From IMG/VR virus record IMGVR_UViG_3300045988_159115: DNA of 64,000 nucleotides, one strand, 5' to 3'. The stretch comes from a virus. Positions 49,216 through 59,254 of this stretch are shown here, in pieces. A model generated the notes under the pieces. That model searched no databases and was not told where the DNA came from. It saw only the letters and a list, made by a program, of their open reading frames with translations. A program made the position numbers and the translations under genes. How positions within the stretch are numbered: position 1 is the first letter of the stretch; every line of letters begins with the position of its first letter.

Positions 49216-52185
49216 TTAAACCTCAGTATATCTACTGAGCATCATCACCATCAAGCCATTATAATTGAAGTTCGGACGGATAACGATCTTATTATTCTTC
49301 TGGTAGTTTGTCCAGACAGCAGGATAGTTGTTTTGGACATTCGTACCATCAAGAATCCAAGACTGAGGCTTCGTAACTCCACGCGGAATGATGATATCCG
49401 TATAGAATCGCTTCATATCCGTAGTATCTGCATCCGGAGTAACTGCATCATTGACATTAGGCTCAAGATTCTCACCCGGTTTACCACCAAGCTCGCCATA
49501 TTTATCTTTGATAAGCCAGTCAAGAAAATCATCCTTCGTCTTATTATCAATACCCGGATTATTGAGAAACTCATCCATCGGAGTGTTTTCTTTATTCGGC
49601 TTATTGGTAGAGAAAATGGAAGGATCCATATCCTTTTTATAAATGGCAAGATTCAAACGAGATGCGACATTATAAAGCTTGATAAATCTACCAGTGATGC
49701 ATTCAATGTTATAATGGAACAGTCGACGACCATTCAGATAGACTTCGTAATAGTCGAGACTAAACGGAGTATCCAAATAATCTGCTGTATCAATCATATA
49801 GTTTTCCGGAATTTCCGGAATGAATGCAACACGCTTGTACGAATACGGTGTAACATCAGTTGATTGCACGTACTCTGTTGTAGTCGGGAAATAGTCCGTT
49901 CGTGCTACAAGCTTGTACGGGCCATCGCTTTCAATCTTGATATTACAAACGATTCGACGTCTATCCACAAATGTACGAAGATAAGAAGCTTCCTCGATCC
50001 AAGGGATAGCATTCTTCAGAATACCATATCGCTGGACATTCATCATCGGAGGAGTGACATCATGACGAATGAAAGAATCCTTATTCACGATGAAGGTATA
50101 AGTCACATTGACTTTACTAGCATCATTCAGTTTCACTTTCATTCGAGTGAGATGCATATATTTCGGAAGATCTTTCTCCACATTCGGAGTGATCTTCATA
50201 TACATTTCACCCTTTTCACCATCAATAACTTCGACATTTGCGGGAATACCGCATTTTTCTTTTCTCTCAGCAAGACTGAGCTTCTTATTATAGTCGCTCA
50301 TATTCACTAAGGTATAGAAGGAGAAAAGATCTTTATCAATCTTCTCAACTTCATCCTTGCGAACGAACAGGTCATGCCAAGTAGGAATCATGGACGATGC
50401 ATCCGTGAAATCCATATCCCACACTTCATCTGTGGATTTGAAAGCATGCTTCTTATAATAAGAATAGTAGTCAAACCGTTCGATTACGATGTGAGAGATC
50501 GGTGTGATAAACTCCTTAGGAATATAAATATAATCAAACTCGCCGACGTGAATCTGAAGATATTTTGTACACAGGAGTCCATCAATAAAGTATCGAAGTT
50601 GCAGACTATTCGGACCGTCATTTCGGAAGACAAGCAGATATCTAGTTTCCTCGAATTGGATCGGATTCTTCGGATCTTCTTTTGCAGTGCTAGTACGCTC
50701 ACGCTTCGGAAGGTCAACGTTACCAGCATACATGTAATAGAGATCGGAAGTAGGATTCGTAGTACCGATGTATTTTTCCTGCGGCTTCGGCTCAAGAAGA
50801 CCCCATTGTTTTGCCTTATCAATCTTGTAGTCATACGAATCCGGATACTGATTCGACTTGATGAAATCACCATGATTATAAATATAATCGGGGTCTTCAT
50901 ACTCGAACGTAGTCTCAAAATACTTCTTAGTAGGATCAAGAGACGGATCTACCTTATCATACAGAAGCTTATTGAGAGCACCTTCCAGATTAGTTTCACC
51001 ATACTTATCACTCATTTGCTTTTTGAAGAACTTGTGAATGTAGTCAAACTGATTGGTATATCTCAGATACCTCTCCATCGGACGATACAGATAAAAGAGT
51101 TTTACATCATATTTATCTGCAACATCTTTTGTCGTAACGATTTCATAGATATTCGGGTAATGCAGTCTGGTCAGATCACTGTAGTTAAAGTAGGTTACCT
51201 CACCAGTTGCCTTATCCTTAAAGAAAATAATGATATTCTCTTCAGGAATCGGCATATTGTAAGGAATACCTTCTTCTTCCTGAATGACAGCAATACATGA
51301 GTAATTCTCATTACTCGTACGCTTTCTCAGTGTCCGAAGTCCTTCCACCTCGTACATGTAGTTCGGATGGAAGAAAGTGATCTCAAACGTATTACCGCCA
51401 TGATGAGCAAAATAGTTTTTCAGCCAATCTGTTGCAGGAATAACCAGATTACCCTCGTCATCGACTCTACCATAGTTCAGGCTGTTACCCATGATCTCAT
51501 AACAGTTTTTCGTTGTCTTATTCACGCAACGGACTGTGTAGAAAATCGGGGTTCCTTTCATCAGGACACCAGTCAGAGTCTTACTGAAGATATAATTCTC
51601 AGCCTTTGCATCAAGAATATTCTTCAGTACGATTGTATTTGTCAGGAAGCTATGCGTCCAAGTATTTCGAAGCATAAATACTTCGATATTATGCTTTTCC
51701 TTGAAATAAGATGGCTTTGCAGGAAGATCGTGGAACACAATCTCGGTACGGCCATCCAGAGTACACTTAAAGCACACATTCAATGCAACCCGATTATCTA
51801 CGATTGCACACGGTGTAAATTCAAACACCGTTTCCGGAGAATACTCGGGTTTAAATTGCTTCTCTGATAAGTCTTCGGCAATGTCAGCATAAGTGATATA
51901 CTTACCGAAATACTTACTGTATTTATATACCTTACGCTTAGTCGCGTCAATAAAGTCTTTCGGAACAGAGATGCAAAGTTCCGTAGGGTAATTCTTATCC
52001 ACAAAGAAATTGGCTTGTGTGAAGTGGAATCGTTCCATACAACTGTAACTCTTTTGAACTCGCTTCAGAAACTGAAAAGAGTTCTCAACGGTTGTATGGA
52101 GCAATTTATTCAGCTCTTCTTCGTCATACGTACTATTCAGAATATTATCGTAATTCGGAGTGAGCTCACCGGTTAATTTACCCAT
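49216..52185 (-). CDS. large structural protein (baseplate/tail?)
   Basis: 989-aa ORF; GAAAGGGGAG SD; heads the fibre gene block. Confidence 0.75.
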   Translation of the reverse strand: MGKLTGELTPNYDNILNSTYDEEELNKLLHTTVENSFQFLKRVQKSYSCMERFHFTQANFFVDKNYPTELCISVPKDFIDATKRKVYKYSKYFGKYITYADIAEDLSEKQFKPEYSPETVFEFTPCAIVDNRVALNVCFKCTLDGRTEIVFHDLPAKPSYFKEKHNIEVFMLRNTWTHSFLTNTIVLKNILDAKAENYIFSKTLTGVLMKGTPIFYTVRCVNKTTKNCYEIMGNSLNYGRVDDEGNLVIPATDWLKNYFAHHGGNTFEITFFHPNYMYEVEGLRTLRKRTSNENYSCIAVIQEEEGIPYNMPIPEENIIIFFKDKATGEVTYFNYSDLTRLHYPNIYEIVTTKDVADKYDVKLFYLYRPMERYLRYTNQFDYIHKFFKKQMSDKYGETNLEGALNKLLYDKVDPSLDPTKKYFETTFEYEDPDYIYNHGDFIKSNQYPDSYDYKIDKAKQWGLLEPKPQEKYIGTTNPTSDLYYMYAGNVDLPKRERTSTAKEDPKNPIQFEETRYLLVFRNDGPNSLQLRYFIDGLLCTKYLQIHVGEFDYIYIPKEFITPISHIVIERFDYYSYYKKHAFKSTDEVWDMDFTDASSMIPTWHDLFVRKDEVEKIDKDLFSFYTLVNMSDYNKKLSLAERKEKCGIPANVEVIDGEKGEMYMKITPNVEKDLPKYMHLTRMKVKLNDASKVNVTYTFIVNKDSFIRHDVTPPMMNVQRYGILKNAIPWIEEASYLRTFVDRRRIVCNIKIESDGPYKLVARTDYFPTTTEYVQSTDVTPYSYKRVAFIPEIPENYMIDTADYLDTPFSLDYYEVYLNGRRLFHYNIECITGRFIKLYNVASRLNLAIYKKDMDPSIFSTNKPNKENTPMDEFLNNPGIDNKTKDDFLDWLIKDKYGELGGKPGENLEPNVNDAVTPDADTTDMKRFYTDIIIPRGVTKPQSWILDGTNVQNNYPAVWTNYQKNNKIVIRPNFNYNGLMVMMLSRYTEV

Positions 52186-52250
52186 AACTTCTATTATCTC
52201 CCCTTTCTTTTAGTATTTATCAATACAAGTGAAAGTCTAACTGATTAGAA

Positions 52251-52265
52251 TACTGTTTTCAGGTG
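52251..52265 (-). promoter_or_regulatory. class I promoter-like motif CACCTGAAAACAGTA
   Basis: 65 nt upstream of the ATG at 52185 and immediately downstream of hairpin 52272-52316. Confidence 0.5.
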
Positions 52266-52271
52266 GTATGT

Positions 52272-52316
52272 AAGATAGACACTGATACCCAATGAAGAAA
52301 TATCAGTGTCTATCTT
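52272..52316 (-). other. 16-bp perfect hairpin (terminator-like, no U-tract)
   Basis: AAGATAGACACTGATA / TATCAGTGTCTATCTT. Confidence 0.5.
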
Positions 52317-52352
52317 TGTCGGAAGTGCCAAAATGTGAAAGGAACATAGTGG

Positions 52353-52443
52353 TCCCCCACCGGGGTATCGGGCCCCATCTCACACCTATCTAGTGTCAAT
52401 GGAGGGGTATAGAGCCTCCTGCTTTCCTTAAGCTAATGGGGGA
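52353..52443. ncRNA. compact multi-hairpin element (candidate small structured RNA)
   Basis: A 7-bp closing stem TCCCCCA / TGGGGGA encloses three local hairpins (GGGG..CCCC, ACAC..GTGT, GGAGG..CCTCC). It does not fit a tRNA. Confidence 0.25.
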
Positions 52444-52462
52444 TATCTATCTAATTGTATCT

Positions 52463-52510
52463 ATAATAAAAATGCAGAGTAAGTTCACTGTTACGAAACT
52501 TACTCTGCAT
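52463..52510 (-). terminator. rho-independent terminator ending the transcript that covers 53922->52511
   Basis: 14-bp stem ATGCAGAGTAAGTT / AACTTACTCTGCAT followed on the - strand by TTTTATTAT. Confidence 0.8.
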
Positions 52511-53226
52511 AGTAATGCCAAAATCGAGTTACTCCAAACTTCGTGGCTCCATGCATTCGCGATCGTTATAACGTCGCCGATCGTTGGACAACTCTATCGT
52601 TGCTTTCTAAAAACCTTACCGGAATCAAACCGATAAGTTGAGAAGCACTTACACGAGCGCCTACGGCGGCGATATAATCTTTATGGGAATACACTTTAAC
52701 CGGGAGCATGAGAAATTTTACTCAACCCTATGGGACGGCCAAATATAGCCGTGAATCCATAATCGAACTCCTTTTCATACATGCCATGGCATACAGGCCC
52801 GACATTTCTACAGAAGCGTTGGCCAATGGCCTCTGTACCTCGAGCACTGTAAACGTTAATCAGTATTTTGAAGTCCACAACCGAAAGCAAATAACGATGC
52901 AAAGTCAAAAACTCAAATGACAATTGGAGGCAACCAAAAGCAACAAGAAAAAGACTGAAGTTACATGCCATATGATACTTCATACTGATTCCCCAGAATC
53001 TTACTGGGCCCGATATAGTTATGTGGAAGCTATATCATCGAACTTCGGGCGCTCGAGCGCGTCCTAACATAGAACGGAGGTCTATGTCTATCCAGTAGCC
53101 ACTACTCAAATGACCGGCGTCACTGACGGCGTCAGCCAACATGGGGCTACCAAGACCGAATGAGAAAAACTCATAGACACTGTCTACGATAAAAAACTCA
53201 TTCATACCATATAGTTGAGAAGATTT
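52511..53226 (-). ncRNA. candidate large structured non-coding RNA (or very long structured 3' UTR), ~715 nt
   Basis: No convincing ORF; visibly higher G+C than flanking genes; many local hairpins and palindromes (GCGCTCGAGCGC, TATGCCATGGCATA, GATATAG..CTATATC, ACATAGA..TCTATGT); bounded by the stop of gene 53227 and a terminator. Confidence 0.45.
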
Positions 53227-53922
53227 TTATTTATTTATATCATAATCCGGAGGGAGCTCTCCGTTCAGCTTAGCTGCTTTCAATTCAGCTTTCGCTTCAC
53301 GATTCCTCTTTATGAACATTGTGGTTCCGTGCTTTTCACGATACGGAAGCTTTATTTGGCCAAGATCAGTTACGCTATTTAACTCAGCCTTATTATACGT
53401 CTTTATTTTATCGCTATTATGCAGAGCAACGTCGACGAAGCGGCCTTCATTGATGATGTAGTTACCAGAGATCGAAGCATTCTCAAGATATGCACCAATC
53501 ATACAAGATTTCTCATAAAGATTGATGCAATTCCCTTTCTTCAAAACACAGTTCATCACTTTAGAGCTACAACCAACTACGCTATCATATATGGTAGAGT
53601 CTTCAATTGTAGCATCTTCCATAATAGCACTTTTCTTATCAATGATCGAATTTTTAACTTTTGCATTACCGGATACAAAACCAAACCGAACGACCGAGTT
53701 CACGATCTTTGCATTGGCACAAACGAAACCATTTGCCGCAAACACCCAACTCTTATCAGAATGAGTATTCGGAATTGCATCTTTGCTTGATACAAATCCT
53801 CCTTGTGTTCCACAAGGAATAAATGTCCCATCCATAGCAACAAAATCTTCCTGTGCAACGATCGTATACAACTCTTTGGAAAATGACGTTGCCGCAGCGG
53901 GAAGAAGCTTATACTTCGGCAT
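53227..53922 (-). CDS. beta-helix repeat protein (hexapeptide-like repeats)
   Basis: Repetitive ...ANAKIVNSVVRFGFVSGNAKVKNSIIDKKSAIMEDATIEDSTIYDSVVG...; start ATG 53922 after GAAGGGTG. Confidence 0.6.
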   Translation of the reverse strand: MPKYKLLPAAATSFSKELYTIVAQEDFVAMDGTFIPCGTQGGFVSSKDAIPNTHSDKSWVFAANGFVCANAKIVNSVVRFGFVSGNAKVKNSIIDKKSAIMEDATIEDSTIYDSVVGCSSKVMNCVLKKGNCINLYEKSCMIGAYLENASISGNYIINEGRFVDVALHNSDKIKTYNKAELNSVTDLGQIKLPYREKHGTTMFIKRNREAKAELKAAKLNGELPPDYDINK

Positions 53923-54699
53923 TTTCAACACCCTTCTTTCATGATTCAATAGAATACCAAGCCTAAATTAAGTACCTGTCTTTGCTATGGTAGATAATCA
54001 CTACTACACACGGAAATTGAAAGAACCGTATGTAGTAGTGATTACCCATGTAGGATGTGGATGTGTTACCTGCGTTCTGATCGCTCAAAACAGAAAGGTT
54101 ACTATGATGAGAGAAACTCATTGTATCTGTGTGCCCTTCATCCACTTAGGGCGGAAATAACTAAGAGAGGGAGGTTTAACCTTTCGTCTAATCCCATATG
54201 CGCCCTCAAAAACAGTACGAGGAACGCCACAGTAATTAGCCTTATGCAGCCAGGTCTGTGTCAACCTGGCACTCCAGCCTACCAAAGGATGCGTATACAT
54301 CTGTCTCTCCGAAGAGTCCGCATTTACTCCTCTGGCTGTTTTCGGAACCACAATGGCACATGCGAGAAAACCAGCCAACTCGGGCTATATGCACCAAGCC
54401 CACGCGTCCCTGTTATGAGCCATTATTGTTCACAATCCCCGTTTCCGGTAACTAAAGCCAGCTAAGCTATAGCGGATCATGGTCGGCTACACCTATCATA
54501 AAAGGGCAATAAGCGTTACATCTGTCGTCACGACAGTTGCTTCGGGATTTCACCGAATAAAAACCTTGCTTAGAATGAATTCTTTAATCCATTCTATCTC
54601 AATGTTAGAAGGTTGATTATTTATAAAAAAGATTCCATTCTAATTCCTGAGATTACGTTAGTGTAAGAAACTCAGTAGAAAAGAAAGGATTGGAATGAT
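53923..54699. ncRNA. candidate large structured non-coding RNA in a 777-nt divergent gap
   Basis: ORFs here are R/S/C/P-rich and lack an SD. The region is G+C-rich relative to its surroundings. It has a ~20-bp hairpin at 53994-54044 and nested helices (GCCAGGT..ACCTGGC at 54249-54270; TGGCTGTTTT 54334-54343 / AAAACCAGCCA 54367-54377; CTGTCG..CGACAG 54521-54536). Confidence 0.4.
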
Positions 54700-55188
54700 A
54701 TGAGCAACTATTTTCGTACGACATATTTTCCACATCATGATGATACATGGACGGGTGATTTTCATCCCAAGTTCTATAAAGGGATTCCTGGTGCTACCAT
54801 GGATGACTTTCTTACGCATATTGATTCACGATATGATGATGTATATTCATATTTCTTTGAAGTGGTTGATGCAGACGGAGTCGTTGACTGGACAGATAAG
54901 AATCTGGTTGAAGACTATCTCGACTACGTCCGGTATTACTACTTCAAAGAACATGACTGCGTGAGAGCACACCACAGAAGTAAATGCTGCTATTTGTGCA
55001 AGCATTTCATTTCCAATGGAAAAAATAGAAAATTCCTTGGGAGCTGTCTCTATGGACTTGAGAAACCTGATCAATTCCCTCGTCGTCATGTTGGAAATTA
55101 TCATGCAAAGCATGGATTTGAAACATGCAAAAACTTCGAGATGAAGCAATATTATCTCGATAAAAGAGAAGTCAAATTAAAGAGATAA
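54700..55188 (+). CDS. hypothetical Cys/His-rich protein
   Basis: 162-aa ORF; AAAGGA SD; contains HHRSKCCYLCKH...C...H..H...CKNF. Confidence 0.65.
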   Translation: MSNYFRTTYFPHHDDTWTGDFHPKFYKGIPGATMDDFLTHIDSRYDDVYSYFFEVVDADGVVDWTDKNLVEDYLDYVRYYYFKEHDCVRAHHRSKCCYLCKHFISNGKNRKFLGSCLYGLEKPDQFPRRHVGNYHAKHGFETCKNFEMKQYYLDKREVKLKR

Positions 55189-55191
55189 AAA

Positions 55192-55234
55192 AATAACCGC
55201 TGTGGAAGATTTTATTCTATCCACAGCGGTTATT
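55192..55234. terminator. bidirectional terminator
   Basis: AATAACCGCTGTGGA / TCCACAGCGGTTATT between convergent genes. Confidence 0.8.
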
Positions 55235-55235
55235 A

Positions 55236-56015
55236 TCACCAGAAGAATCTTCTAGCGAAATAAATCAGGGTGCCGATGCCAGCGGCAATGATATCCATAT
55301 AGTTCTCACGAACCCATTCACAGATGATATCCCATTGCGTCATAGATGCATCAAAGATGAGTCTACGATACGGGTCAATCTGATAAATGCAATCAGAGTG
55401 AGAATCATAGTGGACGTCATAAGACTGGAAGTTATATCCAAATCCATCCGAAGTAGCTACCTTTGTTTTTCCTTTGAGCTTAGCAAGCATGACATACTTG
55501 AACTGCGAGATATAGGTGTTACCTCTTTTCGGAAGAAGGATATAAACTTGTCCATCCTCAGGATCATAGAAAAGGTTATGCGAACGACCTGCGCCATCCC
55601 ATTGGATTTGACTAGAAATATCCTTCGTTTTACCACGTGCTGCAACATCCAAATGGTAGTAATGCTTTACAGTATTTCCACTATTCTGCTCAAGGCAAAC
55701 TTCGCCGTCATCATCATAGACCCAGTAGAACTCACCAATCGTTTCTCCAAAAACATTCGTGTTATTGGAGATGCCATACATATTATGGACTTTCCAACGT
55801 TTGATTTTCTCCGCTTTCCGTTGGTCTTCATGAAATTCATGAGCCATTCGAGCCGCTTCTTTCCGCTGACCTTCATGAAGCTCACGGGTCATTCGAGCTA
55901 CTTCGTCTTCCTGATCCTTCGTAAGACCGGAATCGTAAACCTTCTTCGTAATATACCCATCTTCATGAGCCTGATTTATAAGGCCTTCTGCAATACGAAG
56001 GTTCCAATCACTCAT
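55236..56015 (-). CDS. hypothetical protein with C-terminal membrane anchor
   Basis: Start ATG 56015 (MSDWNLRI...); internal repeat ARMTRELHEGQRKEA / ARMAHEFHEDQRKAE; C-terminus IIAAGIGTLIYFARRFFW. Confidence 0.65.
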   Translation of the reverse strand: MSDWNLRIAEGLINQAHEDGYITKKVYDSGLTKDQEDEVARMTRELHEGQRKEAARMAHEFHEDQRKAEKIKRWKVHNMYGISNNTNVFGETIGEFYWVYDDDGEVCLEQNSGNTVKHYYHLDVAARGKTKDISSQIQWDGAGRSHNLFYDPEDGQVYILLPKRGNTYISQFKYVMLAKLKGKTKVATSDGFGYNFQSYDVHYDSHSDCIYQIDPYRRLIFDASMTQWDIICEWVRENYMDIIAAGIGTLIYFARRFFW

Positions 56016-56277
56016 TGCGATTCCACCATCGGATGTTTTTTTCAAATAAATCAGTCTTAGATGCAAGCTCATCTTCAGACATATCTTTTTCAGGCTCATC
56101 TTTGGATCCGTCGTTCACAGTAATGCCAACTACAGTATTGCCATCGCCGCTAATCGTCTGTGTAATATTGATACTTTGAGCTTGAACGATATTATCGCCA
56201 CCGGTTTGCGTCTGGTTGATATTGATTACGTTACGGGTAGCACCCACAAGACGATGAAACATGCTATTATCTGCCAT
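56008..56277 (-). CDS. small hypothetical protein
   Basis: Start ATG 56277 after AGGAGGTG; 8-nt overlap with the downstream gene. Confidence 0.6.
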   Translation of the reverse strand: MADNSMFHRLVGATRNVININQTQTGGDNIVQAQSINITQTISGDGNTVVGITVNDGSKDEPEKDMSEDELASKTDLFEKNIRWWNRNE

Positions 56278-56343: not shown

Positions 56344-58449
56344 TTATTCCTCATCGTTGACTTCATCAATCACCGAATCAGAATCGGTGGACATTGCATG
56401 GTCCTCGATGAACCGTTCCGTAGAAGTGGTCTTCTTGAAGTATGCGTCAATGTAAGAAGGAGCGTTCTTGATCGTAACCAAGTTATCGCTCATCAACTGA
56501 CGCTTGATGTCCTGACCAGCAAAGCCGAGCAGAGGAGACTTATTGTGCTCGATTGCACGAGAGACGGTAAGAATCTTGTACTTACCAACCTCATCCTTCG
56601 TAAAATCAGGACGCTCAAAATCAACATCTGGATCCTTACGAATCAGACGACTGATGATCAGCTCACCAGACAGTGCAGTTGCACCAATCTTTGCATCAAG
56701 CAGAAGGTCGGTAAACTTCTGTGCCATCTCATGATAGTTGGACGTGACGTTCTGATCTGCTTTCGCCTTACTATTCAGAAGACTCATCAGAGAGTACAGC
56801 GGCTTCGTCAGCTCGTTGTTCATGATGACGATACTGAACAGAGTAGTCAGTTCATTCATCTCAGAGAAACGAGCATAACCACGACCCTTACGAACGAGAT
56901 CAATCAGGTCATCCGTCAAGAACAGCTCACGGTCTTCATCCGTAGAAATCCAGATAGACTCATGAGTTTTCATGTTCTGCACATAGAAGCCGCCGAGCAC
57001 GTAGCTGTTGAACGAAGAATCTTCGTCCAGTTCATCTGCTTTCTGAATGGAAGTAGGATCAATCCAAACTGCCCAGTCTTCAATATCGGGAATTGCGTCA
57101 TCCCCAATCTTCGGACTCACCTCGCCACAGTACAGCTTGAAGAAACGATTGAACTCTTCAGAGAAGTTGATCTTCTCAGATACCGTGGTAAGCAGATGCT
57201 TTGCAGACAGAATCATCTGGTTCACAACCTTAGTGAACTCCTCAACTTCAAAGCCAACGACGCCAGCAGAAATATCGAAGTTCATCGTAGACGTACGGCC
57301 AAAACAAACATGACACACTTCATCATGACACGAACAAGTAATCGGACTACGGAAATTAACCCAAGTACCAATCAACTGCGTATCCTTTCTTGCATTCACA
57401 AGACGGATTTCGCCATTTGCATCAACGTAGTACCGGTTGTTATACTTCTGAAGCATCTGAGGAGTTTTGATATAAATCTTCAGATAATGCTTCGTTCCAC
57501 AATCCGACACGGTCTTGGACAGAGACAAAGTACGTGCCAACAGAAGGACAAGCTTACCGAAATAGCCAGCATTGCCCATGACCTTCTTATTCATAATCAG
57601 AGATTTGCGAGCGCCCAATGCATCAATGTAATGAGAACTCGGTTTATCCAGACCACGAATCAGAGTAGAAGAGTTGATAGGAAGCGGGATGGTAATACCA
57701 GCAAGGTCAGGTTTCAAGCCCATATGAGCAGTGAACTCAACGAGCTGCTTGTGCTTAATGCCCGTATCCGCACGAAGAATCGTACCAACGGGATCATCCT
57801 TCCGAGATTTGATCTCAGCGATCAATCTCTTCTGAATATCAGCCAGAGAATCTTCAATCTCACTCGGCTGCATATCAAGCGGGAATCTGGTTTCCATCAG
57901 CTCACGAAGGGTAGGATCATCACGATACCAATGCAGGAACGTTTCACTGGACATCGTCAGACCCATAATCAGAGAGAAGTTGATCGAAATGCTTCGCAGA
58001 TCATGAAGCACATTCGAAATAGAGTTGTTGACTGTGGTATTTCGCACACTGTAATCTCTCAGTGCAGTGACGATTTTCTGATCAATGTAGTCCTTCAGAT
58101 GAGGAACTTCATTCCAGCAGTCAAAGATATAGTTTTCATCCATCTCGAAGTCCGTATCATACAGATTCACGAGAGGATGCCACATGAAAAGATTGATGAG
58201 AAAGTGACGCAGTTGAAGCGTATGAATCTTCTCATCACGGTTCTCTTTATAAAACTTGAAAGGCACCATATACTCACGGCAATCTTTCTTTTCAAAGCAC
58301 CCTTTTACGATCATGTAGATTTGATCAACCAGCGCACTATAATCTTCGTCGCACCTCATATAGTCGTTGATGAAATAAATTGGGCGTAAAAACGTCTTCA
58401 GTTCTTCAACGTCATGAATCTCAGGGACAATGTTGCTGTTGCTACTCAT
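56344..58449 (-). CDS. phage RNA polymerase beta-prime-like subunit, C-terminal half (bridge helix)
   Basis: IDALGARKSLIMNKKVMGNAGYFGKLVLLLAR parallels the beta-prime bridge helix G.RKGL.DTALKTA.SGYLTRRLV. Confidence 0.7.
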   Translation of the reverse strand: MSSNSNIVPEIHDVEELKTFLRPIYFINDYMRCDEDYSALVDQIYMIVKGCFEKKDCREYMVPFKFYKENRDEKIHTLQLRHFLINLFMWHPLVNLYDTDFEMDENYIFDCWNEVPHLKDYIDQKIVTALRDYSVRNTTVNNSISNVLHDLRSISINFSLIMGLTMSSETFLHWYRDDPTLRELMETRFPLDMQPSEIEDSLADIQKRLIAEIKSRKDDPVGTILRADTGIKHKQLVEFTAHMGLKPDLAGITIPLPINSSTLIRGLDKPSSHYIDALGARKSLIMNKKVMGNAGYFGKLVLLLARTLSLSKTVSDCGTKHYLKIYIKTPQMLQKYNNRYYVDANGEIRLVNARKDTQLIGTWVNFRSPITCSCHDEVCHVCFGRTSTMNFDISAGVVGFEVEEFTKVVNQMILSAKHLLTTVSEKINFSEEFNRFFKLYCGEVSPKIGDDAIPDIEDWAVWIDPTSIQKADELDEDSSFNSYVLGGFYVQNMKTHESIWISTDEDRELFLTDDLIDLVRKGRGYARFSEMNELTTLFSIVIMNNELTKPLYSLMSLLNSKAKADQNVTSNYHEMAQKFTDLLLDAKIGATALSGELIISRLIRKDPDVDFERPDFTKDEVGKYKILTVSRAIEHNKSPLLGFAGQDIKRQLMSDNLVTIKNAPSYIDAYFKKTTSTERFIEDHAMSTDSDSVIDEVNDEE

Positions 58450-58648: not shown

Positions 58649-58736
58649 GTCACCGTGGTGGAATTTTGGCAGACACGTAGCTCTGAGGCGGCTATCCGTT
58701 TAATTATGGGTCCCGGTTCAAGCCCGGGCGGTGACA
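58649..58736 (+). tRNA. tRNA-Leu (anticodon GAG), class II with long variable arm, no encoded CCA
   Basis: Acceptor GTCACCG/CGGTGAC; U8; anticodon stem TAGCT/GGCTA with loop CTGAGGC; long variable arm; T arm CCCGG-TTCAAGC-CCGGG. Confidence 0.8.
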
Positions 58737-58741
58737 CTCAC

Positions 58742-58819
58742 GCTAGATTAGCTCAGTTGGCAGAGCGATTGATTTGTAATCAATAGGTTCCTAGGGTTCG
58801 AGCCCCTAATCTAGCTCCA
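58742..58819 (+). tRNA. tRNA-Thr (anticodon UGU), CCA encoded
   Basis: Acceptor GCTAGAT/ATCTAGC; D arm GCTC-AGTTGGCA-GAGC; anticodon stem ATTGA/TCAAT with loop TTTGTAA; T arm TAGGG-TTCGAGC-CCCTA; 7-nt variable region. Confidence 0.75.
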
Positions 58820-58862
58820 AAAAATACCAGGTGGATAGATAATATTCTACCTGGTATTTTTA
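58820..58862 (+). terminator. rho-independent terminator after the tRNA-Leu/Thr pair
   Basis: AAATACCAGGT / ACCTGGTATTT followed by TTTATT. Confidence 0.8.
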
Positions 58863-58909
58863 TTCATTTAAATGCAATAGACGATTTATAATAAATTATA
58901 AATCTATAA

Positions 58910-58927
58910 CTATATTATATCATATAT
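58910..58927 (+). promoter_or_regulatory. AT-rich class II box CTATATTATATCATATAT abutting tRNA-Ser
   Basis: Ends at the tRNA 5' end; contains the TATATTATA core. Confidence 0.35.
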
Positions 58928-59019
58928 GCCAGTGTGGTGGAGTTGGTCGAACACACCGGTCCTGAAAACCGGCATACGCTAATAACGTATCCTCGGATCG
59001 TACCCGAGCGCTGGCGCCA
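58928..59019 (+). tRNA. tRNA-Ser (anticodon UGA), class II, CCA encoded, atypical loops
   Basis: Acceptor GCCAGTG/CGCTGGC; U8; anticodon stem CCGGT/ACCGG with loop CCTGAAA (C at position 33); variable arm ATACG..CGTAT; T arm CTCGG-ATCGTAC-CCGAG (A at position 54). Confidence 0.65.
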
Positions 59020-59020
59020 T

Positions 59021-59047
59021 AGAGGATGACAACATCCTCTCATTTTT
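59021..59047 (+). terminator. rho-independent terminator after tRNA-Ser
   Basis: AGAGGATG-ACAA-CATCCTCT followed by CATTTTT. Confidence 0.8.
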
Positions 59048-59180
59048 GATATCACCGTGACAGTAATCTTCATTGTTGTGTCATGGATTGGACATATATT
59101 TGACCTCCTAAAAATCAGATACTTTCACCTACCATATCTTCTGCTTGACCTGGATGTGGTAGGTGTTAGTATCCCAATAA

Positions 59181-59254
59181 TGAGGCGTAGGCCAATGGTA
59201 AGCCAGTGTTCTTTGAAAGCACTGAATCCGGATCGTAACCGGGCGCCTCAGCCA
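59181..59254 (+). tRNA. tRNA-Gln (anticodon UUG), CCA encoded
   Basis: Acceptor TGAGGCG/CGCCTCA; U8; anticodon stem GTGTT/AGCAC with loop CTTTGAA; T arm TCCGG-ATCGTAA-CCGGG (A at position 54). Confidence 0.7.

What the first reader, a model, noticed from the sequence alone, without database searches (positions are those of the whole stretch)
53923..54699. Second ORF-poor structured region (777-nt divergent gap): candidate large ncRNA B
Between the divergent genes 53922(-) and 54700(+) lies the longest gap in the window. The only ORFs (for example 54055-54465) are R/S/C/P-rich, have no SD, and look like translated non-coding sequence.

The sequence is G+C-rich relative to its surroundings and shows nested helices:
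- a hairpin of about 20 bp at 53994-54044
- GCCAGGT/ACCTGGC at 54249-54270
- TGGCTGTTTT (54334-54343) pairing with AAAACCAGCCA (54367-54377) with one bulge
- AGGGCG (54149-54154) pairing with CGCCCT (54202-54207)
- CTGTCG/CGACAG at 54521-54536

Together with region A it brackets a single beta-helix gene, forming an 'RNA island' of about 2.5 kb. Strand and ends are unknown.
Basis: partly seen in the sequence, partly recalled or inferred. Interest (0 to 1): 0.68.

Follow-up and report, generated by a model that had tools for sequence, protein, structure and literature searches.

The report
New large structured phage RNA
The 777-base gap holds a previously undescribed, elaborately folded non-coding RNA of about 600-670 bases, on the minus strand of an uncultured jumbo phage, which adds a new family to the very short list of large "ornate" phage RNAs whose function is still unknown.

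Summary

I resolved the strand as minus. The evidence is MFE z -7.3 against -3.4, 80 G-U against 19 A-C cells in paired columns, and a G-rich transcript.

The window is a distant AR9/PBS1-like jumbo phage. The same gap occurs, in the same gene order, in five sequence lineages from IMG/VR, ENA and Logan assemblies. Flanking sequence has diverged to about 55% identity. Invariant single-stranded islands alternate with helices that keep pairing through compensatory changes. In one domain 24 of 43 pairs show double changes; 82.7% of cells are paired against 37-50% for slid controls. Elsewhere, 9 of 36 pairs show double changes.

The fold has at least 18 helices:
- a leader hairpin;
- a 286-nt 5' domain with a multi-branch junction and a likely pseudoknot;
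- a three-way-junction 3' domain;
- a terminal hairpin of 15-20 bp.

No Rfam 15 family matches even at E=10. No ORF is conserved, and there is no copy in GenBank phages or in 185,579 representative genomes.

The best reading is a new trans-acting ornate RNA of the GOLLD/ROOL kind. One hairpin loop switches palindrome (UAGCUG to UUGCAA), which hints at self-association. Promoter, ends and function remain inferred.

The parts
54649..54666 (-). Invariant box TTACACTAACGTAATCTC at the 5' edge. It contains a TTAC-N6-GTAA palindrome and the 5' strand of the leader hairpin. It may be the 5' end of the RNA, or a promoter/operator shared with the divergent gene.
   Evidence: The box is identical in lineages C1-C4 and reads TTACAGTAACGTAATCC in C5, while surrounding sequence diverges. 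It is unique in the window.
54596..54653 (-). Leader hairpin L0. The base is AUCUC...GAGAU. The inner pairing is AGAAUGG/CCUUCU in this window and GUAG/CUAC in lineages C2-C4.
   Evidence: L0 is predicted independently in all five lineages. C5 keeps it as GUAAUCCGG...UCGGAUUAC, with changes on both sides, and the apical part covaries within C2 and C3.
54572..54595 (-). Lineage-C1-specific 25-nt insertion forming the hairpin AGAAUGGAUUAAAGAAUUCAUUCU. It starts at the +1 of a minimal AR9-type AACA-N6-TA motif.
   Evidence: The insertion is present only in C1. The inverted repeat is I4. The motif hit has +1 at 54595, but it scores poorly against the phage's strong late-promoter family.
54518..54557 (-). 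H1 (54541-54557) has a 5-bp stem and the 7-nt loop UGNAAUC. H2 (54518-54540) is GCA-CUGUCG-UGA-CGACAG-UGU.
   Evidence: H1 is invariant. H2 is 100% paired, with compensatory changes at two pairs (A-U/G-C; A-U/C-G/U-A).
54376..54519 (-). Multi-branch core of the 5' domain.
- Closing helix GCUU/GAGU
- P3: 54496-54506 with 54408-54418
- P3a: 54481-54493
- P4: 54474-54480 with 54432-54438
- P4a: 54451-54473
- P4b: 54439-54448 (GAAA loop in C1)
- P5: 54382-54401
   Evidence: Covariance model R1 and alignment A8 give 43 pairs, 82.7% of cells paired against 37-50% when partners are slid. Twenty-four pairs have changes on both sides. The covariation score is 0.375, against 0.17 in shuffles with 0 of 500 reaching it. 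Separate MFE folds of each lineage give the same branches. R1 also finds the non-seed C5 sequence L030 (E 0.0013) and the non-seed L040 and L041.
54459..54465 (-). P4a hairpin loop UUAGCUG, carrying the self-complementary hexamer UAGCUG (AGCU core). It is a candidate symmetric kissing-loop contact between two copies of the RNA.
   Evidence: The loop is (U/G)UAGCUG in C1-C4 and AUUGCAAG (palindrome UUGCAA) in C5, while the stem below it covaries. Palindrome-to-palindrome switching is the signature used to support intermolecular kissing loops in OLE and GOLLD (PMC12286853). This rests on a single evolutionary event.
54333..54377 (-). P6 pairs 54372-54377 with 54333-54338. It encloses a variable insert and the conserved, apparently unpaired GAAAAC (54338-54343).
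   Evidence: Four of 6 pairs have compensatory changes: UGGCUG/CAGCCA, UGCUAG/CUAGCA, UGCCAG/CUGGCA, UGCUAA/UUAGCA.
54285..54332 (-). P7 hairpin (54311-54332) with the invariant 8-nt loop AAAUGCGG.
- Candidate pseudoknot: loop AUGCG (54319-54323) with CGCAU (54289-54293).
- CCUU (54285-54288) can pair with AAGG (54564-54567) to close the 5' domain.
   Evidence: In P7, three of 7 pairs are compensatory. The pseudoknot and the AAGG/CCUU pairing are complementary in every sequence but never vary, so they are neither supported nor contradicted.
54164..54310 (-). Three-way-junction 3' domain.
- S0: GGAGAG 54305-54310 with CUCUCU 54164-54169
- S1: GGUAGG 54278-54283 with CCUCC 54170-54174
- S2 hairpin: 54249-54270
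- S3 long hairpin: 54188-54239
- Conserved linker: GGUUAAAC 54174-54181
   Evidence: S1 changes on both sides between lineages: GG(U)AGG/CCUCC, GGAGG/CCUCC, GACGAGU/ACUCGUC, GGCAAGU/ACUUGUC, AGGUGG/CUGCCU. S0 has A-U to G-U in two sequences. The S2 + S3 architecture recurs in folds constrained only at S0.
54069..54152 (-). Three hairpins after the junction: S4 54133-54152, S5 54107-54121 and S6 54069-54094.
   Evidence: A hairpin is present at the S4 position in all lineages, with compensatory differences: GCCCU/AGGGC, GCCAC/GUGGC, CUGUAAAUG/CAUUUGCAG, GCCCU/GGGGC. S5 and S6 are seen in C1 and, in altered form, in the other lineages. This is weaker evidence.
53991..54047 (-). Terminal hairpin T. 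The stem is 20 bp and the loop 12 nt. The basal AAUCAC.AC/GU.GUGAUU is invariant and the apical half covaries. It probably defines or protects the 3' end. No U-tract follows it.
   Evidence: T is inverted repeat I1. The stem is 15-20 bp in all five lineages.
53966..53981 (-). Conserved motif GACA-GGUACU-UAAU between T and the beta-helix gene. It resembles the phage's AACA-N6-TAA late promoters, with 3 of 4 matches in the AACA box.
   Evidence: The general form nACr-N6-TAAT is kept at the same spacing in all five lineages. The late-promoter family is defined. The AR9 consensus is AACA-(6N)-TA/G, with the last base as the start site (PMC5312081 and PMC5449584).
53227..53922 (-). Downstream gene on the same strand: a 231-aa left-handed beta-helix (hexapeptide-repeat) protein. 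This is context, not part of the RNA.
   Evidence: Pfam gives Hexapep_GlmU at E 1.6e-5. PDB profile hits cover LbH domains only. Protein identity between lineages is 51%.

Best explanation
The gap encodes a previously undescribed large structured non-coding RNA. It is read from the minus strand, from about 54657 (at least 54570) to 53991, roughly 580-670 nt. It belongs to a clade of uncultured AR9/PBS1-like jumbo phages.

**Shown**
- The sequence folds into at least 18 helices.
- Most helices that vary keep pairing through compensatory substitutions across five lineages.
- Invariant unpaired islands lie between the helices.
- No ORF is conserved.
- No known RNA family matches.

**Inferred**
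- It is an independent, trans-acting 'ornate' RNA of the same kind as GOLLD and ROOL, rather than a leader of the next gene (about 0.6).
- A leader hairpin (L0) and a 20-bp terminal hairpin (T) cap and protect the two ends. T is either a termination signal for the phage RNA polymerase or a double-strand-specific processing site.
- The compact core is held together by long-range helices: GCUU/GAGU, AAGG/CCUU, S0 and S1. A loop-to-strand pseudoknot (AUGCG/CGCAU) also contributes.
- The palindromic P4a loop lets two copies pair loop-to-loop, so the active form would be a homodimer or larger assembly (about 0.3).

What the RNA acts on is unknown. Its position is suggestive: it sits beside a second large structured RNA and an odd tRNA-like gene, and four ordinary tRNA genes lie 4 kb away. 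That points, weakly, to translation or tRNA biology, as has been proposed for GOLLD and ROOL.
For: **Strand**
- MFE is -251.6 kcal/mol (z -7.3) on the minus strand and -210.3 (z -3.4) on the plus strand.
- Paired columns hold 80 G-U cells against 19 A-C cells.
- The plus strand is C-rich across the element.

**Conservation**
- The same gap, in the same gene order, appears in 5 IMG/VR contigs (four of 250-262 kb, one of 145 kb) and in more than 15 ENA/Logan contigs.
- These fall into five lineages that are 53-75% identical across the element, with invariant islands.

**Structure**
- R1/A8: 43 pairs, 82.7% of cells paired against 37-50% for slid controls. Twenty-four pairs show changes on both sides, and 0 of 500 shuffles reach the covariation score.
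- H1, H2, P6, P7, the pseudoknot and the closing helix on A6: 99.1% paired against 35-40% slid. Nine pairs show changes on both sides.
- S1, S0, P6 and P7 pair tables. T hairpin. L0.
- Each lineage folded on its own gives the same branch pattern.

**Not coding**
- No shared open frame.

**Not a known family**
- Rfam 15 finds nothing at gathering cut-offs. At E<=10 it lists only miRNA, snoRNA and similar noise.

**Restricted to this phage clade**
- blastn against 50,697 phage records finds nothing.
- Three motif scans of IMG/VR return the same five contigs, plus one chance hit in a coding region.
- Genome contigs gives 0 matches with one motif. The second motif gives 9 hits, about the number I estimate by chance, and none matches R1.

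**Resemblance to GOLLD/ROOL**
- The size and ornateness are comparable, it is phage-encoded, and tRNA genes lie nearby.
- The P4a loop switches palindrome, the signature reported for OLE and GOLLD kissing loops (PMC12286853).

**Independent transcript**
- A conserved late-promoter-like motif lies between T and the beta-helix gene.
Against: - There is no expression evidence of any kind. The phage is uncultured and no transcriptome could be consulted.
- Neither of the two promoter classes I could define in this phage lies upstream. Those classes are 12 strong CCTGAAAACA-N6-TAA sites and the TATAATATAT-type sites. The only matches, AACA-N6-TA at +1 = 54595 and a sigma-70-like TTACA-N19-TAGAAT, fall inside the conserved leader hairpin.
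- The terminal hairpin has no U-tract, so the 3' end is inferred.
- All five lineages are related phages with identical gene order. Linkage to the beta-helix gene therefore cannot be separated from shared ancestry, and a cis-acting role is not excluded.
- Five lineages are few. Several key contacts never vary: H1, the pseudoknot, AAGG/CCUU, and S0 apart from one A-U/G-U position. The palindrome switch is one event, in one partial sequence (L030).
- Alignment A8 was fitted to the model, which inflates the paired percentage somewhat.
Confidence: 0.72

Rival explanations
1. It is a very long cis-acting 5' leader of the beta-helix (hexapeptide) gene. In this reading the fold senses a ligand, protein or tRNA and controls transcription read-through or translation of 53227-53922. 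One possible mechanism is alternative pairing of the pyrimidine tract CCUCCCUCUCU with the downstream Shine-Dalgarno region.
For: - The RNA has the same strand and orientation as the gene, and always lies directly upstream of it, in all five lineages.
- No intrinsic terminator separates them.
- RNAalifold on the first five-sequence alignment paired CCCUCUCUU with the AAGAAGGG ribosome-binding region.
Against: - At 580-670 nt with at least 18 helices, it is several times larger than known riboswitches or T-boxes. None of those models match.
- The CCUCC-CUCUCU tract is already held in S0/S1, where S1 covaries. Any pyrimidine tract is complementary to a Shine-Dalgarno sequence, so that pairing carries no information.
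- A conserved promoter-like motif sits between the terminal hairpin and the gene.
- A 20-bp perfect hairpin with an invariant base is not a typical expression platform.
- Gene order is uninformative, because the whole neighbourhood is syntenic among these close relatives.
Confidence: 0.18
2. It is a catalytic or self-processing RNA, or the RNA part of a mobile or ribonucleoprotein element. Possibilities are a new ribozyme class, a degenerate group I or group II intron, or a guide-like RNA for a neighbouring protein.
For: - AR9-type phages are rich in group I introns; the AR9 record annotates an HNH endonuclease as 'group I intron' within the vRNAP gene.
- The fold has a pseudoknot candidate, long-range helices and strictly invariant unpaired nucleotides, as ribozymes do.
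- The divergent neighbour is a conserved Cys/His-rich protein of unknown function.
Against: - There is no match to any intron, RNase P, HEARO/omega-type or ribozyme model, even at E=10.
- The element lies between complete genes, so there are no exons to join.
- No intron-type ORF lies inside it.
- There are no terminal repeats and no second copy in the window or elsewhere.
- The Cys/His protein has no Pfam, PHROG or PDB relative, and its predicted structure was unusable at pLDDT 41.
Confidence: 0.06
3. The conservation acts at the DNA level. In this reading the region is an origin, a packaging signal, or a set of protein-binding inverted repeats between divergent promoters, and not an RNA.
For: - It lies between divergently transcribed genes.
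- It contains an invariant TTAC-N6-GTAA palindrome and a 19-20-bp inverted repeat whose arms are conserved in sequence.
- An AT-rich stretch lies at 54600-54640.
Against: - Pairing is strand-asymmetric, with 80 G-U against 19 A-C cells, and the fold z-score is -7.3 against -3.4. DNA hairpins or duplex binding sites would not produce that asymmetry.
- Long-range helices 90-140 nt apart (P3, S0/S1) covary.
- There are no iterons or direct-repeat families.
- The invariant box could still be a DNA operator in addition to being part of the RNA.
Confidence: 0.03
4. It is an unannotated or decaying protein-coding gene, possibly with frameshifts.
For: The window has a 136-aa ORF at 54055-54465(+), which lies within a 155-codon stop-free frame.
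Against: - The frame is broken in a 94%-identical relative, where the longest is 87 codons. It is absent in lineages C2 and C4, at 61 codons or fewer.
- Indels between lineages are not multiples of three.
- Pfam and PHROG searches of the ORF find nothing.
- Substitutions are pairwise-compensatory rather than codon-periodic.
Confidence: 0.01

Closest known systems
ROOL RNA (rumen-originating, ornate, large; about 580 nt)
   Same: - It has the same size class and is phage- or prophage-encoded.
- ROOL often sits near tRNA genes.
- It has a many-helix fold with pseudoknots and no known protein partner.
- Quaternary kissing loops hold its octameric cage together (PMC12286853).
   Different: - There is no sequence or structure match to the Rfam ROOL model, even at E=10.
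- The helix topology is different.
- Here the family is confined to one jumbo-phage clade.
- Oligomerisation here is only hinted at by one palindromic loop.
[quoted passage not shown]
   Same: - It is a large phage-borne structured RNA of unknown function.
- It sits next to or among tRNA genes.
- It has one better-conserved half and one more variable half.
- Symmetric kissing loops in it covary between palindromes (PMC12286853). Here the P4a loop goes from UAGCUG to UUGCAA.
   Different: - There is no match to the Rfam model.
- This RNA is smaller.
- Here the 5' half is the conserved one, whereas in GOLLD it is the 3' region.
- No tRNA is embedded in it.
OLE RNA (ornate, large, extremophilic; about 600 nt)
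   Same: - The length is similar.
- It has a dense array of conserved helices and invariant single-stranded nucleotides.
- It forms a dimer through a palindromic kissing loop that covaries GGCC/GAUC/AGCU.
   Different: - OLE is a cellular RNA of anaerobic Bacillota, tied to the partner proteins OapA, OapB and OapC.
- There is no model match here.
- No such partner genes lie nearby.
phi29 pRNA
   Same: It is a phage-encoded structured RNA that works as a multimer built by loop-loop base pairing. This comparison rests on my own knowledge.
   Different: - pRNA is about 120-174 nt.
- It uses two different complementary loops, not a palindrome.
- It is part of the packaging motor of small podophages.
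- The Rfam scan found no such match here.
Long cis-regulatory leaders (T-box, riboswitches, ribosomal-protein leaders)
   Same: It is a structured RNA immediately upstream of a gene and on the same strand.
   Different: - It is three to five times larger.
- There is no model match.
- There is no recognisable terminator/antiterminator or Shine-Dalgarno-sequestering switch.
- A promoter-like motif separates it from the gene.

Membership tests
GOLLD / ROOL / OLE (individual Rfam families) | Match to the family covariance model (shared sequence and secondary structure) | tested here: not met
   cmscan of the window at gathering thresholds found only one tRNA. cmscan of 51900-55000 at E<=10 listed 11 chance-level hits (miRNA, snoRNA, ctRNA and similar), and none was to these families.
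Large 'ornate' phage ncRNAs as a class (what it works like, not homology) | More than 500 nt, with many helices supported by covariation and conserved unpaired nucleotides | tested here: met
   The RNA is 580-670 nt with at least 18 helices. Of the 79 pairs counted, 33 have changes on both sides.
Large 'ornate' phage ncRNAs as a class | Encoded by phages or prophages, commonly near tRNA genes | tested here: met
   - The genome is a jumbo phage. PHROG identifies an RNAP beta subunit, and tblastn finds AR9/PBS1 at 29% identity.
- Relatives are contigs of 250-263 kb.
- A tRNA-like gene lies about 1.5 kb away.
- Four tRNA genes lie 4 kb away.
Large 'ornate' phage ncRNAs as a class | RNA-only homo-oligomeric assembly | not testable with these tools
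   The only hint is that the P4a loop stays self-complementary across a three-base change, UAGCUG to UUGCAA. That criterion is the one used in PMC12286853.
Riboswitch / T-box / leader | Match to a known aptamer or leader model, with an expression platform that alternates with a terminator or Shine-Dalgarno helix | tested here: not met
   - There is no Rfam match.
- No terminator-like site lies between the element and the gene. One weak 5-bp candidate lies inside P5/P6.
- The pyrimidine tract is occupied by the covarying S1 and by S0.
Group I / group II introns | Match to intron models; insertion within a gene with exon continuity | tested here: not met
   There is no model match. The flanking genes are complete and divergent, and both are conserved as whole proteins in relatives.
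tRNA, tmRNA, RNase P, 6S, SRP and other housekeeping RNAs | Match to the respective model | tested here: not met
   ARAGORN and Rfam find nothing in 53923-54699.
AR9-type late transcription unit | AACA-(6N)-TA/G promoter with the last base as start site (PMC5312081, PMC5449584) | tested here: inconclusive
   - The window has 12 strong CCTGAAAACA-N6-TAA sites upstream of genes.
- The RNA has only a minimal AACA-N6-TA (+1 = 54595). It scores -4.1 against at least 20 for the strong sites, is TACA in C2-C4, and lies inside the conserved leader hairpin.

The most novel reading that the evidence does not exclude
RNA B is the founding member of a new class of self-assembling phage RNAs. Copies would pair through the palindromic P4a loop into a dimer or larger RNA-only particle. 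With the neighbouring structured RNA A (about 720 nt) and the unusual long-arm tRNA-like gene, it would form a dedicated 'RNA island'. A jumbo phage would use that island to capture or reprogramme part of the host translation or tRNA machinery.
Probability: 0.2. Interest if true: 0.88.

Novelty: new variant of a known kind. Interest (0 to 1): 0.72.

Why it matters
Only a handful of bacterial or phage RNAs above 500 nt with ornate conserved folds are known: GOLLD, ROOL, OLE, and a few more if HEARO and raiA are counted. None of the three has a settled function. In 2025 all three were shown to form unexpected RNA-only assemblies.

A further, unrelated family would widen that sample.
- It comes from a different phage type, a jumbo phage with its own multisubunit RNA polymerases.
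- It offers a compact, well-delimited construct for cryo-EM and probing.
- It sits next to a second large structured RNA and an odd tRNA-like gene, which gives a concrete genetic context in which to ask what such RNAs do.

It also shows that large-RNA discovery in viral metagenomes is not exhausted. The largest survey of IMG/VR reported candidates of only 29-151 nt (PMC10690425).

Tried and rejected
1. **Rfam on both strands**, at gathering thresholds and at E<=10: nothing relevant.
2. **blastn against 50,697 GenBank phage records**: no match.
3. **My first metagenome DNA scan** used a wrong spacer (N7 instead of N6), so its zero result is meaningless.
4. **The motif TTCGGTGNAATCCCGAAGC in IMG/VR** gave one extra locus (L031). 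It is a chance hit inside a GC-rich coding region.
5. **Two motif scans of 185,579 representative genomes.**
   - The first gave 0 hits.
   - The second gave 9 hits, close to the roughly 14 I estimate by chance. None matches model R1, and the one I read is coding sequence.
6. **Synteny in AR9 around its nvRNAP beta' gene**: no comparable gap and no beta-helix gene, so AR9 transcriptome data cannot be transferred.
7. **Promoter search.**
   - I defined a strong late-promoter family and a TATAATATAT-type family in the window. Neither lies upstream of the RNA.
   - The sigma-70-type scan gave fewer sites than shuffles.
   - GTAGAAT words are not a class.
8. **Iterons or origin**: no direct-repeat families.
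9. **Paralogy or complementarity between region B and region A**: none.
rejected (see observation check).
11. **The RNAalifold suggestion that ACGC pairs with GCGU**: rejected. It breaks in lineage C3 and in two of the three C2 sequences. GCUU/GAGU fits better but hardly varies.
12. **An intramolecular partner for the P4a loop** (AGUUG of the GAGUUG box): it pairs in C1-C4 but fails in C5.
13. **Structure prediction of the divergent 162-aa Cys/His protein**: pLDDT 41, unusable, so no fold search was run. Pfam, PHROGs and PDB give nothing.
14. **A covariance model of the 3' domain** was not attempted. MAFFT seed alignments across lineages were too poor there. That domain rests on anchored pair tables and per-lineage folds instead.
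Full report
**1. What is at the coordinates.** The stretch 53923-54699 separates two divergent genes.
- 53227-53922(-) encodes a 231-aa protein with a weak GlmU-type hexapeptide (left-handed beta-helix) match.
- 54700-55188(+) encodes a 162-aa Cys/His-rich protein with no family.

G+C rises to 0.45-0.50 inside the gap, against 0.35-0.41 around it. The plus strand is C-rich there. The only sizeable ORF, 54055-54465(+), has no Pfam or PHROG relative. This is not the longest gap in the window. Region A, 52186-53226, is longer.

**2. Genome context.** The window is a phage.
- 56344-58449(-) matches PHROG 'RNA polymerase beta subunit'.
- By tblastn it matches the non-virion RNAP beta' subunit of Bacillus phages AR9, PBS1 and relatives, at about 29% identity.
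- Four tRNA genes lie at 58649-59254.
- Relatives are IMG/VR and ENA contigs of 250-263 kb.
- Twelve intergenic sites carry CCTGAAAACA-N6-TAA. This is an extended form of the AR9 late promoter AACA-(6N)-TA/G, whose last base is the start site (PMC5312081, PMC5449584).
- TATAATATAT-type words, reminiscent of AR9 early promoters, recur in other gaps.

The genome is therefore an uncultured, distant AR9-like jumbo phage.

**3. Strand.** Three results agree on the minus strand.
- The gap folds to -251.6 kcal/mol on the minus strand (z -7.3 against dinucleotide shuffles). On the plus strand it folds to -210.3 kcal/mol (z -3.4).
- In the paired columns of the best-aligned domain there are 80 G-U cells and 19 A-C cells.
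- Base composition points the same way.

RNA position n, counted from the conserved AGCAAGG, equals window 54571-n.

**4. Relatives.** Four searches gave syntenic loci in five lineages.
- Searches anchored on each of the two flanking proteins in IMG/VR.
- A search anchored on the 162-aa protein in JGI/ENA metagenomes.
- Two searches of the 5.8-billion-protein collection, followed by contig look-ups.

The lineages are:

| Lineage | Members |
|---|---|
| C1 | window, L002-L007, L019-L023, L041 (93-99% identical among those compared) |
| C2 | L008, L025, L037, L040 |
| C3 | L013, L024, L026, L032, L033, L036 |
| C4 | L029 |
| C5 | L030 (first 253 nt) and L039 (last two-thirds), two strains from one sample |

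Across the element the lineages are only 53-75% identical. Invariant islands stand out, including:
- AGCAAGGUU, UUCGGUGNAAUCCCGAAGC, GUAACGCU and UAGCUG;
- GAGUUG, GUAAAUGCGG, GGAGAG and AUACGCAUCCUU;
- GGUUAAC, CCUCUCU and the base of the last hairpin.

The family seems confined to this clade.
- Only ten 90%-identity clusters of the 162-aa protein exist in that collection.
- Three motif scans of IMG/VR return the same five contigs, plus one chance hit.
- GenBank phages give nothing.
- 185,579 representative genomes give nothing beyond chance.
- AR9 itself has no comparable locus.

**5. Structure of the 5' domain (RNA 1-286).** RNAalifold and hand analysis of a 16-sequence alignment (A6) gave these helices:
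- H1 and H2;
- a closing helix GCUU/GAGU around a multi-branch core (P3, P3a, P4, P4a, P4b, P5);
- P6, then P7 with an invariant 8-nt loop.

MAFFT mis-registered some helices by one column. I therefore built a covariance model of the core (R1, 151 positions, 43 pairs) and realigned all sequences to it. On that alignment:

| Measure | Observed | Control |
|---|---|---|
| Cells forming standard pairs | 82.7% | 37-50% with 3' partners slid by 1-3 columns |
| Pairs with changes on both sides | 24 of 43 | 6-12 slid |
| Covariation score | 0.375 | 0.17 in shuffles (0 of 500 reach it); 0.07-0.13 slid |

The alignment is fitted to the model, so the paired percentage is somewhat flattered. Three results argue against an artefact.
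- Each lineage folded alone gives the same P3/P4/P4a/P4b/P5 branches.
- R1 recovers L030, which was not in the seed (E 0.0013).
- R1 also recovers the non-seed L040 and L041.

For H1, H2, P6, P7, the AAGG/CCUU closing helix and a candidate pseudoknot (P7-loop AUGCG with CGCAU), counted on the plain MAFFT alignment:
- 99.1% of cells pair, against 35-40% slid;
- 9 of 36 pairs have changes on both sides (4 in P6, 3 in P7, 2 in H2).

H1, the pseudoknot and AAGG/CCUU never vary. They are compatible with the model but untested by it.

**6. Structure of the 3' domain.** GGAGAG (261-266) pairs with CUCUCU (402-407); this is S0. The bases just after CCUU pair with those just before CUCUCU; this is S1. 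S1 changes on both sides between lineages:
- C1: GG(U)AGG/CCUCC
- C2: GGAGG/CCUCC
- C3: GACGAGU/ACUCGUC
- C4: GGCAAGU/ACUUGUC
- C5: AGGUGG/CUGCCU

Inside S1 every lineage has a short hairpin (S2), a purine-rich linker, a long hairpin (S3) and the conserved GGUUAAC. After S0 comes a hairpin S4 with compensatory differences, then more variable hairpins. The RNA ends in hairpin T, which is 15-20 bp with an invariant base and a covarying apical half.

Upstream of the core, a leader hairpin L0 is predicted in all lineages. C5 keeps it with different bases on both strands. The element therefore probably starts at or before 54657. C1 alone has an extra 25-nt hairpin between L0 and the core.

Four of the five are components of this model: T, S2, P6 and H2. 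The fifth, AGGGCG with CGCCCT, is not. Each arm belongs to a local hairpin found at the matching place in the other lineages (S3, S4), and the proposed pairing would cross S0/S1.

**8. Not coding, not a DNA repeat element.**
- The open frame of the window is broken in a 94%-identical relative and absent in C2 and C4.
- Indels are not in threes.
- There are no iterons, and no second copy in the window.
- The strand asymmetry of pairing and the covariation of helices 90-140 nt apart argue against a purely DNA-level role.
- The invariant TTAC-N6-GTAA box at 54649-54666 could additionally be an operator.

**9. Transcription signals remain unresolved.** None of the strong late or early-like promoters precedes the RNA. 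Two weak candidates both lie inside L0:
- a minimal AACA-N6-TA with +1 at 54595, which is TACA in C2-C4;
- a sigma-70-like TTACA-N19-TAGAAT in this window (N18 in C2-C4).

T lacks a U-tract. Between T and the beta-helix gene all lineages keep nACr-N6-TAAT at fixed spacing. This is a plausible weak late promoter for that gene, and it favours two separate transcripts. A convergent hairpin at 55185-55234 makes read-through from upstream minus-strand genes unlikely. This point is inference.

**10. What it most likely is.** Several features place it functionally with the large 'ornate' RNAs GOLLD, ROOL and OLE:
- its size;
- the number of covarying helices;
- the invariant unpaired nucleotides;
- the phage origin and the tRNA neighbourhood.

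It is not a member of any of those families, because the model matches were tested and failed.

One further parallel concerns the P4a loop. It carries the self-complementary UAGCUG in C1-C4 and UUGCAA in C5. That is three substitutions that preserve self-complementarity, while the stem beneath covaries. Kretsch et al. used exactly this palindrome-to-palindrome covariation as evidence for symmetric intermolecular kissing loops in OLE and GOLLD (PMC12286853).

An intramolecular partner (AGUUG) fits C1-C4 but not C5. I therefore propose loop-loop self-association. This rests on a single evolutionary event seen in one partial sequence, and I give it about 0.3.

The main rival is a giant cis-acting leader of the beta-helix gene. 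It cannot be excluded, because all carriers share gene order. I give it about 0.18.

**11. Novelty.** Rfam 15 has no such family. The largest published survey of structured RNAs in IMG/VR reported motifs of 29-151 nt only (PMC10690425), so at most fragments could have been listed there. Full-text searches for large structured RNAs in jumbo phages found nothing comparable. I rate it a new family within a known kind.

**12. Limits.**
- There is no expression data.
- There are five lineages from one phage clade.
- The 3' domain is supported by anchored pair tables and per-lineage folds, not by a calibrated model.
- The ends and promoter are inferred.
- The function is unknown.

Noticed in passing
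window 52465-53226 (minus strand), 'region A': This is a second conserved, ORF-free structured block of about 720-760 nt, just downstream of the beta-helix gene.
- Invariant islands (GAGAGCCCGAAGUUCGA, CCAGUAAGAUUCUGG, GAUCAACGUUCACAG, GGAGUUCGAUGAU, GUAAAAUUCC, AGUAACUC) are shared by lineages C1-C4.
- MFE z is -6.5 on the minus strand and -5.3 on the plus strand.
- There is no Rfam match.
- It is not a paralogue of RNA B.
   Followed up: partly
window 52470-52520 (minus strand): A strong intrinsic terminator (AUGCAGAGUAAGUU...AACUUACUCUGCAUUUUU) ends region A. Its stem sequence differs between lineages while staying paired.
   Followed up: partly
window about 52350-52445 (minus strand); L008 1525-1618, L032 581-674, L029 298-389, L041 4481-4580: An unusual tRNA-like gene has a long variable arm and, in this window, a 9-nt anticodon loop. 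It ends ...GGGGGACCA.
- ARAGORN and Rfam miss it in the window.
- ARAGORN calls the homologous position tRNA-Ile(TAT) in C2 and C3.
- It calls a CTA (amber-reading) anticodon, labelled 'tRNA-Pyl', in C4.
- It calls a 4-base anticodon in a divergent C1 phage.

This may be a suppressor or recoding tRNA.
   Followed up: partly
window, transcription start sites (+1) of 12 sites: 11876(-), 17165(+), 19422(+), 21221(+), 23809(-), 26701(+), 36421(-), 38978(-), 41423(-), 44710(-), 52246(-), 61666(-): A sharply defined promoter family, CCTGAAAACA-N6-TAA, lies upstream of genes. It is an extended version of the AR9 late-promoter consensus AACA-(6N)-TA/G. PWM scores are at least 20, against 8.5 or less for everything else.
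   Followed up: yes
window 12610, 20825, 21163, 22179, 28824, 45109, 58567 and other sites: AT-rich TATAATATAT(C/A)A(T/A)TA words recur in intergenic gaps. They resemble AR9 early promoters (AAATATATATTAT-N6-G). None lies upstream of RNA B.
   Followed up: partly
window 55185-55234: A palindromic hairpin lies between the convergent genes 54700-55188(+) and 55236-56099(-). It is conserved in other lineages, as shown by BLAST hits in both orientations. It is probably a bidirectional terminator.
   Followed up: no
window 54700-55188 (+): The divergent 162-aa protein is 61-92% identical across all lineages. It has invariant Cys/His clusters (EHDCV..HH...CC..C, H.GNYHAKH..E.C).
- It has no Pfam, PHROG or PDB relative.
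- Only ten 90%-identity clusters exist among 5.8 billion proteins.
- The AlphaFold model is unusable at pLDDT 41.
   Followed up: partly
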